In this document: in pieces, positions 57-37,538 of the stretch | How positions within the stretch are numbered: the stretch's first letter is position 1 | How the letters are laid out: each line of letters begins with the position of its first letter | Assembly: GCA_037968475.1 (NCBI GenBank) | Contig: JBBKVO010000035.1 | Coordinates: 7,090-71,089, forward strand | Length of the DNA: 64,000 nt | Source of the DNA: Bacteroidia bacterium | GTDB taxonomy: Bacteria; Bacteroidota; Bacteroidia; UBA8524 | Reading direction: 5' to 3' | Notes under the pieces: generated by a model | Seen by the model: only the letters and a program-made list of their open reading frames with translations | The model's database searches: none | Told to the model about the DNA's origin: nothing | Made by a program: the position numbers and the translations under genes

Positions 57-1163
57 CTTCGACTTCGCTCAGGATGACAGCTCGCCGCACCCCGTCATTG
101 CGATCCCGAATGTATTCGGGACTAAGCAATCTCACTGAAACTATACAAACAGATTGCTTCAAAACACGAAGACGGTTTTTCGCAATGACGATAGTCGGGT
201 GCGGTGGGTGTCATTCTCAACTTGATTGAGAATCTGTGCGGTGTTCAGTAATCATTATATCTACGCACAGATTCCCTCTTTCGAGGGAATGACTGGCCGC
301 CGCACCTTGCCAGTCGCTGTTCCTCGAAGCGTCCTTCGCTTCGGGTTACTACATTGTAGCGTCCCGCTAGGATTAACCTTTGCGTAGACGCAAACCATAA
401 ATCACTTCAAGCGAGGACGCTTGAAGGAACGACTGTGTCCCGTCATCCTGTCCCGATAGTTATCGGGATTCGGGATCTCATCCCCAATTCCGTCTGTAAC
501 ACATATTGAGATGCCGAACTAAATTCGGCATGACTGCCCAACGACGGTTGTTTTTAACCACCCCGAACCCCTCCTTAGCTGCACACATACCACCGAAGGA
601 GGGGGACTTTGCCCCACAAACTGACAAATACAAATGCGTTTGTAGTTATCGCAATAACTTATTCTCCCGTTCCCCGAAGCGTCCCTCGCTTCGGGTTACT
701 ACATTGTAGCCTCCCGCTACGGCTAGTCTTTGCGTAGACGCAAACCATAAATCACTTCAAGCGAGGACGCTTGAAGGAACGACCGTGCCCTGTCATCCTG
801 TCCCGATAGTTATCAGGATTCGGGATCTCATCCCCAATTCCGTCTGTAACACATAGTGAGATGCCGAACTCCATTCGGCATGACTGCCCAACGACGATTG
901 TTTTTAACCACCTCTAACCCCTCCTTAGCTGCACACATACCACCGAAGGAGGGGGACTTTGCCCCACAAACTGACAAATACAAATGCGTTTACTGGTATC
1001 TCCCGTTCCTCGAAGCGTCCCTCGCTTCGGGTTACTACATTGTAGCGTCCCGCTACGATTAGCCTTTGCGTGGACGCGAACCATAAGCCACTTCATGCGA
1101 GGACGCTTGAAGGAACGACCGTGTCCCGTCATCCTGTCCCGATAACTATCGGGACAGGATGAC
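57..1163. repeat. Composite REP-like palindrome cluster with a ~350-bp block tandemly repeated about 2.5 times
   Basis: Several hairpin families: CTTCGACTTCGCTCAGGATGAC (57-78), CGTCATTGCG...CGCAATGACG (93-190), GTCATTCTCAACTTGATTGAGAATCT (210-235), AGATTCCCTCTTTCGAGGGAATGAC (269-293). A 112-bp unit recurs at 319-430, 669-780 and 1005-1116. ORFs 506..709 and 856..1062 are near-identical at a 350-bp offset. Confidence 0.9.
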
Positions 1164-1262
1164 TATCTGCCGCACTGGCTCGAGTAACTTCACCATTTAT
1201 TAACAGATTAGCATATTGAAAAATTAGTGCACATTGCAGTTAATGTTTATCCCTAAAATTTA

Positions 1263-1291
1263 CTGTTCGTCAGCTAATTTGTTCATTCGTC
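1263..1291 (+). promoter_or_regulatory. Candidate LytTR-type direct repeat upstream of the serine hydrolase operon
   Basis: CTGTTCGTC (1263-1271) and CATTCGTC (1284-1291) are about two helical turns apart; a LytTR regulator is encoded in the same operon. Confidence 0.4.
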
Positions 1292-1352
1292 GGAAAATGC
1301 TTTAATACCCCTTTTGGTGTATATAGTTTTGTGTATACAAATAGCAAAAATT

Positions 1353-2720
1353 ATGGATTCAAAATATTTTACATCACCCTTTAAACCGCTTTATATAGCT
1401 GCTTTATTAGTGGCACTATTGCTGGGTAGTGAAGCCAAAGCACAGCTTAGCAATATGTTTACAGATACCCTAAACAAAGTATTGGCAGGCAAAGCGCAAC
1501 AGTTTGATTTAAAAGGAGTATCAGCCTCAGTGGTATTTTCTGATGGCAGTGCATGGAAACAAACCAAGGGCTTTGCAGGCAATCAACCGTTAGACCCTAG
1601 TATGTTGTTTGAAATGGGAAGTAATACCAAAACTTTTACTGCTGCCCTTATTTTGTTGCTTGAGGAAGAAGGTAAGTTATCTATTAACGATACTATTTAT
1701 AAATACATTTCGCCCTTAAAAAACGTAACCAACGGTATTACCATAAAACAATTGCTAACGCATACCAGCGGTTTGTATAACTATACCAATCATCCTGATT
1801 TTTTTAACGATATAAACACTTCTGACCCTACAGTGAAATGGGATATTGATGCTGTATTGGCTACTTATGTGGGCAATAAACTAGCTGAACCCGGACAAAC
1901 TTTTGCCTACTGCAATACGGGTTTTGTTTTGTTAGGAAAAATTATTGAAAGTATTGAGGGCAAACCCTACCACGTAGTAATGCGCGAAAAACTGTTGAAT
2001 AAACACGGATTAAACCATACTTATTTGCAGGGTTACGATAATTTTACCGAGCAAAGGGCTGAGACTTGGCTTAGTAACGGCGTGTATTTCGATTCTTCGT
2101 TTACCTCTTTTCTCACCGCTGCATGGGCAGCAGGAGGAATAGTGGCCACTGCTGAAGATTTGGCTACATGGGCGCGCAAATTGTATGGCGGCGAGGTGCT
2201 GTCGGCGGCATCAATGGCTAAAATGACTACTAAGCTAAAAATAGGGACTACCACCTACCCAATGGGATTAAGTATGTTTTTTACCACTTTTATGGGTAAA
2301 CAATTTTGGGGGCACGGCGGCGCAACGCTACAAAACAGCGAGATGGAATATAGTGTGGCATCAAAATACAGTGTGGTGGTGGTGTGTAACGAGCAAAATA
2401 CTTATACCGAAGCCCTTACCATAAAACGCGCTATTGAGGAAGTACTCGAAAAAACATTGCCTCCTTTATCTACCCAAGAAACAGTTAAACCACAGTTTAC
2501 AGTATATCCCAATCCTGCCAACAATTTTGTAACCATTAGTATTGATAATGCTGTAAATAATACGGTAAAAATATATACCATTAACGGGCAGTTGGTACAA
2601 CAGTTTCAAAATTTTAAAGACAGTATGAAAGTATACAAAGCCGATATAGGCACGGGTATGTTTGTTGTAGAGGTAACTAATGCAAATGCAACCACTCGCC
2701 AACGAATTGTTATGTATTAA
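1353..2720 (+). CDS. Serine hydrolase (beta-lactamase/PBP-like family) with T9SS C-terminal sorting domain
   Basis: SxxK (GSNTK), YxN (YCN) and HGG motifs; signal peptide; C-terminal VYPNPANNFVTI...KIYTINGQLV. ATG at 1353 preferred over GTG at 1314. Confidence 0.9.
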   Translation: MDSKYFTSPFKPLYIAALLVALLLGSEAKAQLSNMFTDTLNKVLAGKAQQFDLKGVSASVVFSDGSAWKQTKGFAGNQPLDPSMLFEMGSNTKTFTAALILLLEEEGKLSINDTIYKYISPLKNVTNGITIKQLLTHTSGLYNYTNHPDFFNDINTSDPTVKWDIDAVLATYVGNKLAEPGQTFAYCNTGFVLLGKIIESIEGKPYHVVMREKLLNKHGLNHTYLQGYDNFTEQRAETWLSNGVYFDSSFTSFLTAAWAAGGIVATAEDLATWARKLYGGEVLSAASMAKMTTKLKIGTTTYPMGLSMFFTTFMGKQFWGHGGATLQNSEMEYSVASKYSVVVVCNEQNTYTEALTIKRAIEEVLEKTLPPLSTQETVKPQFTVYPNPANNFVTISIDNAVNNTVKIYTINGQLVQQFQNFKDSMKVYKADIGTGMFVVEVTNANATTRQRIVMY

Positions 2721-2729
2721 CTAACTTGT

Positions 2730-37026: not shown

Positions 37027-37098
37027 TGGGGGCAACAGGATTCGAACCTGTGACTCTCCCGACTTATAGGTCGGGATGCTCTGAACCAGTTGAGCTAT
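37027..37098 (-). pseudogene. tRNA-Val-like copy: lacks the 5' acceptor strand, anticodon arm replaced
   Basis: TAGCTCAACTGGTTCAGAGCA-TCCCGACCTATAAGTCGGGA-GAGTCACAGGTTCGAATCCTGTTGCCCCCA. Confidence 0.85.
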
Positions 37099-37335
37099 TA
37101 ATAAGTTTTTCTATTTTCTTTCTACTCTTCCACTTTTTAATTTCAAGCTCTCTTTGATAAGCATCTGCCTTTGTTGAGTGTTCTTCAAAATGCCTCACTT
37201 CCCAATCGAAAACACCGCCTGTAAAACCTTTGTGGTTGGTATTGTGCTTGCGTAGCCTTTCCTTCAAGCTCTCGCCCGTATACCCTACATAGTATTTGTT
37301 TTTGCTTTTGAATAAAGGATATAAGTGAAATACAT
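37064..37335 (-). pseudogene. Small GIY-YIG nuclease interrupted by a -1 frameshift near the N-terminus
   Basis: ATG 37335 reads [10 protein letters not shown]; the -1 frame continues [22 protein letters not shown]...[15 protein letters not shown]. One extra A in TCA AAA (A)GC joins the two into an intact protein. Confidence 0.85.
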
Positions 37336-37387
37336 AAACGCCAATAAACAAAAAAACCTCACCATTACTGATGAGGTTTCTATTTTG

Positions 37388-37462
37388 TGGGGGCAACAGG
37401 ATTCGAACCTGTGACCCTCTGCTTGTAAGGCAGATGCTCTGAACCAACTGAGCTATGCCCCC
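37388..37462 (-). tRNA. tRNA-Val (TAC)
   Basis: GGGGGCA/TGCCCCC acceptor stem, D-arm TAGCTCAGTTGGTTCAGAGC, TCTGC-CTTACAA-GCAGA anticodon arm, GGTTCGAATCC T-loop. Confidence 0.97.
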
Positions 37463-37478
37463 TTTTATTTGCAAATTC

Positions 37479-37538
37479 TTTGAACTGTGAACCTCCCGAC
37501 CGTTGGTCGGGATGCTTAACCACTAGGGTTATGCCCTC
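37479..37538 (-). pseudogene. Degenerate tRNA-Val-like copy (5' part) with the same replaced anticodon arm
   Basis: GAGGGCATAACCCTAGTGGTTAAGCA-TCCCGACCAACGGTCGGGA-GGTTCACAGTTCAAA. Confidence 0.65.

What the first reader, a model, noticed from the sequence alone, without database searches (positions are those of the whole stretch)
104..37512. One TCCCGA...TCGGGA hairpin module is embedded in both REP arms and tRNA-like copies
Seen: TCCCGA-N6-8-TCGGGA at 104-121 (inside a GTCATTGCG REP), 451-468, 801-818 (1 mismatch) and 1137-1154 (inside GTCATCCTG REPs), and at 37057-37076 and 37494-37512, where it replaces the anticodon arm of two tRNA-Val-like copies. The stems are conserved and the loops vary. 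Inference: a short hairpin that is recognised, inserted or copied into existing stem-loops, possibly by the adjacent GIY-YIG nuclease family. This would link the REP clusters to the tRNA element.
Basis: partly seen in the sequence, partly recalled or inferred. Interest (0 to 1): 0.65.

Follow-up and report, generated by a model that had tools for sequence, protein, structure and literature searches.

The report
Dispersed hairpin marks repeats and pseudo-tRNAs
A short GC-rich hairpin (TCCCGA-loop-TCGGGA) is this bacterium's commonest structured repeat; it caps both ordinary intergenic repeats and dead tRNA copies beside a tiny nuclease gene, which suggests, but does not prove, an undescribed nuclease-plus-hairpin selfish element.

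Summary
All six sites exist (five exact, one with one mismatch), against 0 expected by chance. The genome holds 93 copies, and TCCCGA/TCGGGA is its commonest non-AT hairpin stem.

The hairpin sits at the apex of existing stem-loops:
- the loops of two REP-like repeat classes, for which copies without the hairpin at the apex also exist;
- the anticodon arm of four dead tRNA copies.

The tRNA case is not local. In 20 of 30 loci from about 28 genera of the class, a minimal Slx1/UPF0213-like GIY-YIG gene lies just behind a tRNA gene. It ends in or beside a partial copy of that tRNA whose anticodon arm is a TCCCG...CGGGA hairpin. This cassette is present or absent among congeners.

One exact 18-mer (TCCCGATAGCTATCGGGA) occurs in both REPs and pseudo-tRNAs. 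In another family a different palindrome shows the same dual use.

So the module and the link between REPs and pseudo-tRNAs are supported. That the GIY-YIG nuclease writes the hairpin is only an inference from association. The window's own nuclease gene is frameshifted, and only 1 of 9 small GIY-YIG genes here lies near a TCCCGA hairpin. I found no published description; the closest analogues are REP/RAYT and phage SegB.

The parts
94..133 (+). REP-like element GTCATTGCGA-[TCCCGAATGTATTCGGGA, 104-121]-CTAAGCAATC. The outer stem is ATTGC/GCAAT and the hairpin module sits at the apex.
153..189 (-). Inverted partner REP with the same outer arms (GTCATTGCGA...GAAGCAATC) but a different apical hairpin (AAAACCGTCTTCGTGTTTT). 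This shows apices being exchanged on one outer REP.
313..1163 (+). About 2.5 tandem units (periods 350 and 336 bp) of a mosaic of repeat modules. Each unit ends in a nested REP that carries the hairpin.
442..479 (+). Nested REP GTCATCCTG-[TCCCGATAGTTATCGGGA, 451-468]-TTCGGGATCTC. It is a 25-nt GTCAT...ATCTC REP whose apical AACTTGT is replaced by the 18-nt hairpin.
792..829 (+). The same nested REP in tandem unit 2. The hairpin at 801-818 has one mismatch (TCAGGA).
1128..1163 (+). Perfect 17-nt-arm palindrome GTCATCCTGTCCCGATA-AC-TATCGGGACAGGATGAC, with the hairpin at 1137-1154 at its centre.
   Evidence: I6
37480..37540 (-). Pseudo-tRNA A: a decayed upstream duplicate of the leader plus the tRNA-Val 5' part. 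Its anticodon arm is replaced by TCCCGACCAACGGTCGGGA (37494-37512). It is shared with congener G006 and absent in G002-G005 and G007.
37387..37462 (-). Functional tRNA-Val(TAC) with a normal anticodon arm (TCTGC/GCAGA).
37352..37415 (-). Copy 2 of the 64-bp perfect direct repeat: tRNA-Val from the variable loop to the 3' end, plus its intrinsic terminator.
37064..37335 (-). Minimal GIY-YIG (Slx1/UPF0213-like) nuclease gene. The ATG is at 37335-37333. There is a single-base frameshift in the A5 run at 37299-37303: [12 protein letters not shown] is in one frame and NKYYVGYTG...SEHPDL in another. The last residues are encoded by the D-arm piece, and the stop codon TAA (37064-37066) lies in the hairpin loop.
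37028..37100 (-). Pseudo-tRNA B: tRNA-Val copy without the 5' acceptor strand. Its anticodon arm is replaced by TCCCGACCTATAAGTCGGGA (37057-37076 on the plus strand, read there as TCCCGACTTATAGGTCGGGA).
36991..37054 (-). Copy 1 of the 64-bp direct repeat (3' part of pseudo-tRNA B plus terminator). Together with copy 2 it bounds the 361-bp unit.

Best explanation
TCCCGA-loop-TCGGGA is a self-contained palindromic module and the commonest GC-containing hairpin in this Bacteroidota genome. It sits at the apex of pre-existing stem-loops in non-essential DNA.

Shown:
- It replaces the 6-9 apical nucleotides of two REP-like repeat classes.
- It replaces the anticodon arm of dead tRNA copies. In relatives, GC hairpins, some with the same core, also replace T- or D-loops.
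- In the tRNA setting it is the conserved end-piece of a class-wide cassette that is gained and lost: tRNA gene, terminator, 80-90-aa catalytic-domain-only GIY-YIG gene of the Slx1/UPF0213 type, partial copy of the same tRNA with the hairpin, terminator.

Inferred:
- The hairpin is the cognate DNA structure of this structure-specific nuclease family.
- Cleavage at extruded stem-loops, followed by recombinational or template-switch repair from another hairpin-bearing copy, overwrites stem-loop apices. That would spread the module.
- The same breaks would drive the tRNA-segment duplications and tandem arrays, as SegB does in T-even phages.
For: Real and non-random:
- 5 exact sites in the window against 0 expected.
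- 93 in the genome, and the top non-AT stem among 12,299 hairpins.
- 85 of 93 lie outside long open frames, against 15% of random positions.
- The motif is enriched in 56 of 61 relatives, with the reversed-pattern control at 0-4.

Apex position:
- Flanks add a median -7.0 kcal/mol against -4.4 for shuffled flanks, p 4e-9.
- Empty and filled versions of the same outer REP coexist: CCTG 7/6, GCTG 25/2, CCCG 14/5, GTCATCCTGA...CGAAGG class 63/24.
- The window's own REP pair at 94-133 and 153-189 has identical outer arms but different apices.

Same module in both settings:
- There is a 20/20-nt match between the C24 pseudo-tRNA-Arg copies and five REPs.
- These Arg copies are absent from six congeners, so they arose recently.

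Cassette:
- The C35-type GIY-YIG gene is in 31 of 151 genomes and 29 of 100 genera.
- In 22 of 30 loci a tRNA (Val, Ala, Arg, Met, His or Asp) lies just upstream.
- In 20 of 30 loci a T[CT]CCG...CGG[AG]A hairpin lies downstream, and in nearly all of these it sits inside a copy of that tRNA.
- Stem positions 6-7 covary, and TTCCGA/TCGGAA is a double compensatory change.
- The reading frame runs into the hairpin (...GSEHPD-stop) in Val-type loci from several genera.
- At the orthologous locus of 8 congeners the cassette is present in some and absent in others.

Nuclease:
- 12 residues are invariant, including the GIY-YIG catalytic set.
- The predicted fold is closest to UPF0213 (1ZG2) and to Slx1.

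Replicate: in G020 a different GIY-YIG gene is flanked by pseudo-tRNA-Arg copies whose D- and T-loops hold CCTGCCTGCCGGCAGGCAGG. That palindrome gives 197 pattern hits in G020 against 0 for the control.

Other support:
- Hairpin count correlates with GIY-YIG domain count across 61 genomes, rho 0.42, p 7e-4.
- Every other small GIY-YIG gene viewed here lies among GTCAT-type REPs.
- Published analogue: SegB cleaves inside tRNA genes and drives tandem amplification of tRNA-segB units (PMC13096335).
Against: - There is no biochemical evidence or direct mobility event. The nuclease link is co-location plus a weak correlation, which genome size, repeat load and phylogeny all confound.
- In this genome only 1 of 9 small GIY-YIG genes is within 300 bp of a TCCCGA hairpin.
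- The window's copy is frameshifted, and the source run's own contigs agree. So 88+ hairpins persist without an obviously intact cognate enzyme, unless another paralogue serves.
- G020 has 99 TCCCGA hairpins but no C35-type gene at E<=1e-8.
- Many hairpin-bearing tRNA arrays have no GIY-YIG gene within 1.5 kb.
- The Val-type hairpins differ from all REP hairpins at the 7th pair, and their loops look like the old anticodon loop. They may be old, vertically inherited parts of the cassette rather than fresh insertions.
- No target duplication or defined ends are seen, so the replacement mechanism is conjecture.
Confidence: 0.5

Rival explanations
1. The hairpin is a dispersed REP-type module spread by an agent other than GIY-YIG. 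Candidates are replication template-switching between palindromes, host recombination, or an unrecognised transposase. Under this reading, dead tRNA copies are colonised simply because they are neutral DNA with stable stem-loops. The GIY-YIG genes merely share the same junk spacers behind tRNA genes.
For: - Only 1 of 9 GIY-YIG genes is near a TCCCGA hairpin.
- Hairpin-rich genomes exist without the C35-type gene.
- Hairpin-bearing arrays and the C24 copies have no nuclease gene nearby.
- The spacers are mosaics of many repeat modules.
- The loop is hypervariable among otherwise near-identical copies, as expected for template-switch or loop mutation.
Against: - It does not explain why 20 of 30 GIY-YIG loci in about 28 genera carry the same TCCCG core directly at the ORF end, with the frame preserved into the hairpin.
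- It does not explain why another GIY-YIG subfamily in G020 is bracketed by that genome's own dominant palindrome.
Confidence: 0.27
2. The hairpin works at the RNA level. It could be a processing, stability or protein-binding element in transcripts. Alternatively, displayed on a tRNA-like scaffold, it could be an RNA cofactor that gives the domain-only nuclease its target specificity. On this reading its spread in REPs reflects selection for that RNA function.
For: - The nuclease ORF has no terminator before pseudo-tRNA B, so hairpin and tRNA-like tail form its 3' UTR, closed by an intrinsic terminator.
- Compensatory changes keep the stem paired.
- The GTCAT strand folds better than its complement in 29 of 44 unique-flank copies with a clear strand difference (of 60 in all).
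- The protein has no DNA-binding domain.
Against: - The strand asymmetry is weak, and wobble pairs occur on either strand in tRNA-like copies.
- Many copies are perfect DNA palindromes.
- There is no Rfam match.
- No RNA runs are available.
- Only 4 of 93 copies look like terminators.
Confidence: 0.12
3. These are ordinary REPs mobilised by a RAYT/IS200-type Y1 transposase, and the tRNA-like occurrences are incidental.
For: - The genome encodes six Y1_Tnp genes.
- The outer REPs have a conserved 5' GTCA(T) next to a hairpin, formally like GTAG in E. coli REPs.
Against: All six Y1 genes are flanked by other hairpin repeats (ataggattgaaatcctat, ggacgacttaagtcgtcc, cttcaagcgtggacgcttgaag). None is flanked by TCCCGA or GTCAT-type repeats.
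Confidence: 0.05
4. Coincidence: pseudo-tRNA arms and REPs independently hold GC-rich stems that happen to share six bases.
For: The window's two tRNA-like hairpins share only the 6-bp core with REP copies.
Against: - An exact 18-20-nt identity links the C24 pseudo-tRNAs to REPs.
- The same core recurs in tRNA-like copies of 16+ genera, with the control at 0.
- The pattern is replicated with another palindrome in G020.
- The chance of matching one given 6-mer stem is about 1 in 4096.
Confidence: 0.03

Closest known systems
REP / REPIN elements with RAYT (REP-associated tyrosine transposase), mainly Proteobacteria (own knowledge: Nunvar 2010, Bertels & Rainey 2011, Ton-Hoang 2012)
   Same: - Short, imperfect palindromes at tens to hundreds of copies, strictly intergenic, with covarying stems and a conserved 5' tetranucleotide.
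- The candidate enzyme gene is itself bracketed by copies of the repeat.
- Inverted doublets occur (94-133 / 153-189).
   Different: - The associated gene is a GIY-YIG nuclease, not an HUH/Y1 transposase.
- The genome's real Y1 genes carry other repeats.
- The 16-20-nt module nests at the apex of other stem-loops and replaces their loop. This is not described for REPs.
SegB, free-standing GIY-YIG homing endonuclease in the tRNA cluster of T-even phages (PMC13096335)
   Same: - A GIY-YIG gene sits directly beside tRNA genes.
- Tandem amplification of tRNA-containing units occurs, with a junction between the nuclease gene's 3' end and tRNA sequence.
- Close relatives differ in presence or absence.
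   Different: - SegB is roughly 2-3 times longer (my recollection) and, as a GIY-YIG homing endonuclease, would carry a DNA-binding domain (own knowledge). It cleaves near RAWTSGAAC and amplifies intact tRNAs (PMC13096335).
- Here the protein is the 80-90-aa catalytic domain alone, and the gene is chromosomal in Bacteroidota.
- There is no tblastn match in 50,697 phage records.
- The duplicated tRNA copies are disabled by a conserved hairpin.
Slx1 / UPF0213 (YhbQ, BH0048) structure-specific GIY-YIG nucleases
   Same: - These are the best structural matches (1ZG2 at 35% identity; Slx1 entries 6SEH and 4XLG).
- Slx1 cuts branched and stem-loop DNA (own knowledge), which fits a hairpin substrate.
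   Different: - There is no Slx4 partner or RING domain.
- No link to tRNA genes or dispersed palindromes has been reported for UPF0213 proteins, as far as I could find.
Mosaic intergenic repeat clusters (E. coli BIMEs, Neisseria NIMEs) and palindromic mini-elements that invade structured genes (Rickettsia RPEs; GC clusters and double-hairpin elements of fungal mitochondria) (own knowledge)
   Same: - Spacers are built combinatorially from several hairpin modules.
- Small palindromes appear inside RNA-gene-like structures.
   Different: - Those elements insert and keep the target sequence. Here the loop nucleotides are replaced.
- The targets are apices of stem-loops.
- A specific nuclease gene family is co-located.

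Membership tests
REP/RAYT system | Short palindromic repeat, high copy number, intergenic | tested here: met
   93 copies, 85 of them outside long open frames.
REP/RAYT system | Y1 (HUH) RAYT gene flanked by the cognate REP | tested here: not met
   Six PF01797 genes exist, but all are flanked by other repeats.
REP/RAYT system | Conserved tetranucleotide 5' of the hairpin, used as cleavage or guide sequence | tested here: inconclusive
   The outer REPs share GTCA(T). The inner TCCCGA module has no constant 5' neighbour.
Free-standing GIY-YIG homing endonuclease (SegB-like) | GIY-YIG catalytic domain with conserved Tyr/Tyr/Arg/His/Glu | tested here: met
   PF01541 match at E 1e-12. Invariant Y5, Y16, R27, H31 and E63.
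Free-standing GIY-YIG homing endonuclease (SegB-like) | Separate DNA-binding domain that confers long-site specificity | tested here: not met
   The proteins are 79-95 aa and consist of the catalytic domain only.
Free-standing GIY-YIG homing endonuclease (SegB-like) | Presence/absence polymorphism at an otherwise conserved locus | tested here: met
   Among 8 congeners at the tRNA-Val locus, 3 carry the gene, 1 has only pseudo-copy A and 4 are empty.
Free-standing GIY-YIG homing endonuclease (SegB-like) | Cleaves the allele lacking the gene and is copied into it | not testable with these tools
   Needs cleavage and co-conversion assays.
Slx1/UPF0213 structure-specific nucleases | Fold and sequence relationship | tested here: met
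   Foldseek top hits are 1ZG2 (E 6e-4, 35% identity), then 6SEH and 4XLG. Model pLDDT is 80.
Functional tRNA gene | Complete cloverleaf with a 5-bp anticodon stem and 7-nt loop | tested here: not met
   ARAGORN finds only the real tRNA-Val. Copy B lacks the 5' acceptor strand and has a 7-bp stem with a 6-nt loop.
Transposon / MITE | Terminal inverted repeats plus a target-site duplication, with the target sequence kept | tested here: not met
   In filled sites the 6-9 apical nucleotides are replaced, and no duplication is seen.
Integrase-borne island in a tRNA gene | Tyrosine or serine recombinase gene, with the direct repeat limited to the tRNA 3' part | tested here: not met
   The 361-bp unit holds only the GIY-YIG ORF. 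The 64-bp direct repeat exists, but the downstream copy also holds a D-arm piece and the foreign hairpin.

The most novel reading that the evidence does not exclude
Catalytic-domain-only GIY-YIG nucleases and their cognate GC-rich hairpins form a previously unrecognised two-part mobile system in Bacteroidota, which could be called 'hairpin homing'. The nuclease would cut extruded stem-loops, and repair would overwrite their apex with the cognate palindrome.

This would generate a genome's dominant REP-like repeat family. It would also disable spare tRNA copies next to the nuclease's home locus behind a tRNA gene. Different nuclease subfamilies would pair with different palindromes: TCCCGA here, TCCGCC in Met-type cassettes, CCTGCC..GGCAGG in G020. 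The system would be a functional counterpart of REP/RAYT built on an unrelated enzyme.
Probability: 0.3. Interest if true: 0.85.

Novelty: new variant of a known kind. Interest (0 to 1): 0.68.

Why it matters
The origin and spread of REP-like repeats outside Proteobacteria is largely unexplained, and the UPF0213/bacterial Slx1 family has no established function.

A shared hairpin ties together three things: a genome's dominant repeat, disabled tRNA copies, and a minimal GIY-YIG gene lodged behind tRNA genes. This gives a concrete, testable enzyme-substrate pair. If confirmed, it would define a new way in which small palindromes move (apex replacement in stem-loops). It would also explain the tandem pseudo-tRNA arrays seen behind tRNA genes in many Bacteroidia. 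A very small structure-specific nuclease with a defined DNA hairpin target would then be available for study.

If it is not confirmed, the result still matters for annotation: these tRNA-like hits and the '...GSEHPDL' protein tails are by-products of a recurring cassette.

Tried and rejected
- Rfam, permissive scan: nothing in 1-1400, and only tRNA matches in 36900-37650.
- Y1/RAYT transposases as the agent: rejected, because their flanks carry other repeats.
- Phage origin of the nuclease: no tblastn match in the phage collection.
- PDB sequence search and NCBIfam: no match.
- Literature: three full-text searches found no description of GIY-YIG genes with hairpin-bearing pseudo-tRNAs in Bacteroidota; they returned only the SegB analogue.
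- RNA evidence: only DNA metagenome runs hold the locus.
- Counting outer base pairs in MFE folds did not discriminate (66% in shuffles). I replaced it with the energy gain from flanks.
- Strand asymmetry of folding as a test of RNA or ssDNA function: weak, 29 against 15.
- Terminator explanation: only 4 of 93 copies have A- or T-runs.
- Looking for an 'empty' pseudo-tRNA-Arg copy in congeners: none has any pseudo-copy, so there is no empty/filled pair at that locus.

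
Full report
**Observation.** The pattern TCCCGA-N4-10-TCGGGA occurs five times in the window, at 104, 451, 1137, 37057 and 37494. None is expected in 100 dinucleotide-preserving shuffles. The sixth site, 801-818, differs by one base. Sites 451, 801 and 1137 belong to about 2.5 tandem units of a 336-350-bp mosaic repeat, so the window has four independent instances.
- 104-121 lies in GTCATTGCGA...CTAAGCAATC.
- The tandem copies lie in GTCATCCTG REPs.
- The two distal copies lie in tRNA-Val-derived sequences on the minus strand, flanking the one real tRNA-Val(TAC) at 37387-37462.

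**Genome-wide picture.** The window is contig C35:7090-71089 of a 4.05-Mb, 38.6% G+C Bacteroidota assembly.
- The genome holds 93 copies.
- Among all perfect 6-bp-stem hairpins, TCCCGA/TCGGGA (88 copies) is the commonest stem apart from A/T runs.
- Only 8 of 93 copies lie in stop-free frames of 150 or more codons, against 85% of random positions.

Sorting the copies by flanks gives five settings:
1. About 18 simple 25-nt REPs, GTC-ATCCCGAA-CTTG-TTTCGGGAT-CTC. These are one stem variant of a family of about 170 members with covarying stems, GTCAT[NNNN]AACTTGTT[N'N'N'N']ATCTC/G.
2. About 17 nested REPs, in which the apical AACTTGT of such a REP is replaced by an 18-nt hairpin TCCCGA(T/A)NNNN(A/T)TCGGGA.
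3. About 35 copies of GTCATCCTGA-[hairpin]-CGAAGG. This is the common element GTCATCCTGA-GCGAAGT-CGAAGG with its loop replaced.
4. Four ordinary A-run/T-run terminators.
5. Four tRNA-like copies.

For the same outer REP, versions with and without the hairpin at the apex coexist: 7/6, 25/2 and 14/5 for three stems of the 25-nt family, and 63/24 for the third class. The 12-nt flanks of the hairpin add a median -7.0 kcal/mol of folding energy, against -4.4 for shuffled flanks (p 4e-9). The copies are families, so this p-value overstates independence. The window itself shows the principle: the REPs at 94-133 and 153-189 have the same outer arms but different apical hairpins.

**The tRNA-like copies.** On the minus strand the order is:
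- pseudo-tRNA A (37540-37480);
- tRNA-Val;
- terminator;
- a GIY-YIG ORF (37335-37064);
- pseudo-tRNA B (37100-37028);
- an identical terminator.

A perfect 64-bp direct repeat (36991-37054 and 37352-37415) bounds a 361-bp unit. B matches the real tRNA from the D arm to the 3' end, except that the 17-nt anticodon arm is a 20-nt hairpin. The nuclease ORF reads through the D-arm piece (...[11 protein letters not shown]) and stops at a TAA in the hairpin loop.

The gene is frameshifted in an A5 run at 37299-37303: [12 protein letters not shown] is in one frame and the rest in another. Contigs of the best-holding metagenome run are identical there, at depth of about 79. That run may be the sample the assembly came from, so it is not independent.

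Elsewhere in the genome, contig C24 carries two tRNA-Arg(CCT) copies downstream of the real gene. In these, GATGTTTC (the 5' half of the anticodon stem plus three loop bases) is replaced by TCCCGATAGCTATCGGGA. With one base on each side this is identical to five REP-embedded copies. None of six congeners has these pseudo-copies, so the event is recent.

**Relatives.**
- The motif is enriched in 56 of 61 related genomes, at up to 99 copies, against 0-4 for the reversed-pattern control.
- GTCAT-nested versions with the same 18-mer occur in other families.
- Hairpin followed by a T-arm consensus occurs in 21 of 401 genomes of the class (16 genera), with the control at 0.
- Many of these are tandem arrays of 3-11 partial tRNA units behind a real tRNA-Ala, Arg or another tRNA. 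Each unit has the local T arm and acceptor, but with the TCCCGA hairpin in place of the anticodon arm.

Searching with the window's nuclease found it in 31 of 151 genomes (29 of 100 genera). Among 30 loci:
- 22 have a tRNA gene just upstream on the same strand (Val, Ala, Arg, Met, His or Asp);
- 20 have a T[CT]CCG...CGG[AG]A hairpin downstream, within 60 nt of the end of the match to the nuclease, in nearly all cases inside a partial copy of that same tRNA.

The core TCCCG/CGGGA is conserved. Positions 6-7 covary (GAC/GTC, GCC/GGC, GCG/CGC, GAT/ATC), and TTCCGA/TCGGAA is a double compensatory change. In Val-type loci from several genera the ORF keeps its frame into the hairpin (...GSEHPD/A/E). 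This argues that the D-arm piece and hairpin are an inherited part of the cassette.

Some copies carry further GC hairpins in the T-loop or D-loop, for example TCCCGATGGCTATCGGGA inside an intact T stem in L065. At the orthologous tRNA-Val locus of eight congeners, three species carry the gene, one has only pseudo-copy A and four are empty.

**The nuclease.**
- It is a catalytic-domain-only GIY-YIG protein (PF01541; no NCBIfam model).
- Twelve residues are invariant across 23 homologues.
- An AlphaFold model (pLDDT 80) is closest to the UPF0213 protein BH0048 (1ZG2), then to Slx1, ahead of I-TevI.
- From established knowledge, Slx1 enzymes cut branched and stem-loop DNA. That makes a hairpin substrate plausible, but it is an inference.

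**Is the nuclease the agent?**

Evidence for:
- the cassette architecture described above;
- every small GIY-YIG gene viewed here lies among REPs;
- 4 of 9 lie within 207 bp of a GTCAT REP, against about 4% of random windows;
- hairpin counts correlate with GIY-YIG domain counts over 61 genomes, rho 0.42, p 7e-4, uncorrected for phylogeny or genome size;
- an independent replicate in G020, a different family. There another GIY-YIG subfamily is flanked by pseudo-tRNA-Arg copies whose D- and T-loops hold CCTGCCTGCCGGCAGGCAGG. That palindrome is G020's dominant dispersed repeat, with 197 pattern hits against 0 for the control.

Evidence against:
- only the window's GIY-YIG gene is near a TCCCGA hairpin in this genome, and it is frameshifted;
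- G020 has 99 TCCCGA hairpins without a C35-type gene;
- many arrays have no nuclease gene nearby;
- the Val-type hairpins differ from all REP copies at the 7th pair, and their loops resemble the old anticodon loop (CTTATAAG against CTTACAA). They may be ancient rather than freshly written.

**Rivals considered.**
- RAYT-type mobilisation is disfavoured. The six Y1 transposase genes are flanked by other repeats.
- An RNA-level role cannot be excluded. The hairpin and tRNA-like tail form the nuclease gene's 3' UTR. However, strand asymmetry is weak, Rfam has nothing and no RNA runs exist.
- Coincidence is excluded.

**Comparison with known systems.**
- As a dispersed, covarying, intergenic palindrome whose candidate enzyme gene is bracketed by copies, it works like REP/RAYT. 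It fails membership because the enzyme is not an HUH transposase.
- As a GIY-YIG gene beside tRNA genes with tandem tRNA-segment duplication, it resembles phage SegB (PMC13096335). It lacks a DNA-binding domain, has no phage homologues and leaves hairpin-disabled copies.
- I found no paper describing the arrangement.
- Earlier notes of this scan report the same tRNA-lodged cassette in at least 19 other genomes, and a GIY-YIG/REP pairing in this genome. They are unverified AI notes. I reached the cassette independently and use them only as leads.
- What this finding adds is the demonstrated identity of the cassette's hairpin with the genome's dominant REP-embedded module, and its apex-of-stem-loop position.

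**Verdict.** The module and the REP-to-pseudo-tRNA link are supported. Nuclease agency and the break-and-overwrite mechanism are plausible but unproven.

Noticed in passing
window 37299-37335 (minus strand): The GIY-YIG gene is split by a single-base frameshift in an A5 run. The canonical N-terminus [12 protein letters not shown] (ATG at 37335) is in a different frame from NKYYVGYTG... Contigs of the best-holding metagenome run agree with the assembly.
   Followed up: yes
genome contig C24:53488-55411 (outside the window): A real tRNA-Arg(CCT) is followed by two full-length pseudo-copies carrying TCCCGATAGCTATCGGGA. The copies bracket 1.6 kb with two ORFs, one on each strand, and each is preceded by the same terminator remnant. 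Six congeners have no such copies.
   Followed up: partly
window 313-1163; genome contig C35:85330-86592: The tandem repeat contains modules (cttcaagcgaggacgcttgaag, gtagcgtcccgctac) that also flank a Y1 transposase gene about 14.7 kb beyond the window's end. A second repeat/enzyme pair, probably RAYT-like, therefore coexists in the genome.
   Followed up: partly
genome contigs C26:9116-10180, C17:202288-203346, C1:264600-265500, C21:53653-54711, C24:100276-101334: Three other small GIY-YIG paralogue types are each bracketed by their own REP class:
- GTCATGCTGAA.../GTCATACCGAA...
- GTCATTCCTGCGAAAGCAGGAATC
- GTCATCCTGAGCGGAGTCGAAGG
Two other small GIY-YIG genes (the C1 gene listed here and one at C17:1-150) sit behind tRNA-Pro(GGG) and tRNA-Ala(GGC).
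   Followed up: partly
L093 (G020:C2:46100-47100) and the whole G020 genome: Another family's GIY-YIG gene sits between pseudo-tRNA-Arg copies and a real tRNA-Arg(CCT). The pseudo-copies' D- and T-loops hold CCTGCCTGCCGGCAGGCAGG, which gives 197 pattern hits in that genome.
   Followed up: partly
L037 (G225), L047 (G086), L024 (G275), L049 (G002), L040 (G006): Tandem arrays of 3-11 partial tRNA units (63-132 bp) lie behind a real tRNA gene. Each unit has the hairpin in place of the anticodon arm, and some units have their own terminator. No nuclease gene lies within 1.5 kb.
   Followed up: partly
L074, L079, L080 (Met-type cassettes): The most distant homologues of the nuclease sit behind tRNA-Met and are followed by tRNA-Met fragments. 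These carry a different hairpin, TCCGCC-N3-4-GGCGGA, placed just 3' of the CAT anticodon.
   Followed up: no
genome-wide copies of tggataggggtgcgtggactGTCATCCTGA[hairpin]CGAAGGGTGAATGCGCGTTTGGCC: About 17 near-identical copies of an element of 90 nt or more differ mainly in the 4-nt loop of the hairpin (ACAC, ATGC, AGGC, ACGC). The loop therefore mutates faster than its flanks.
   Followed up: no
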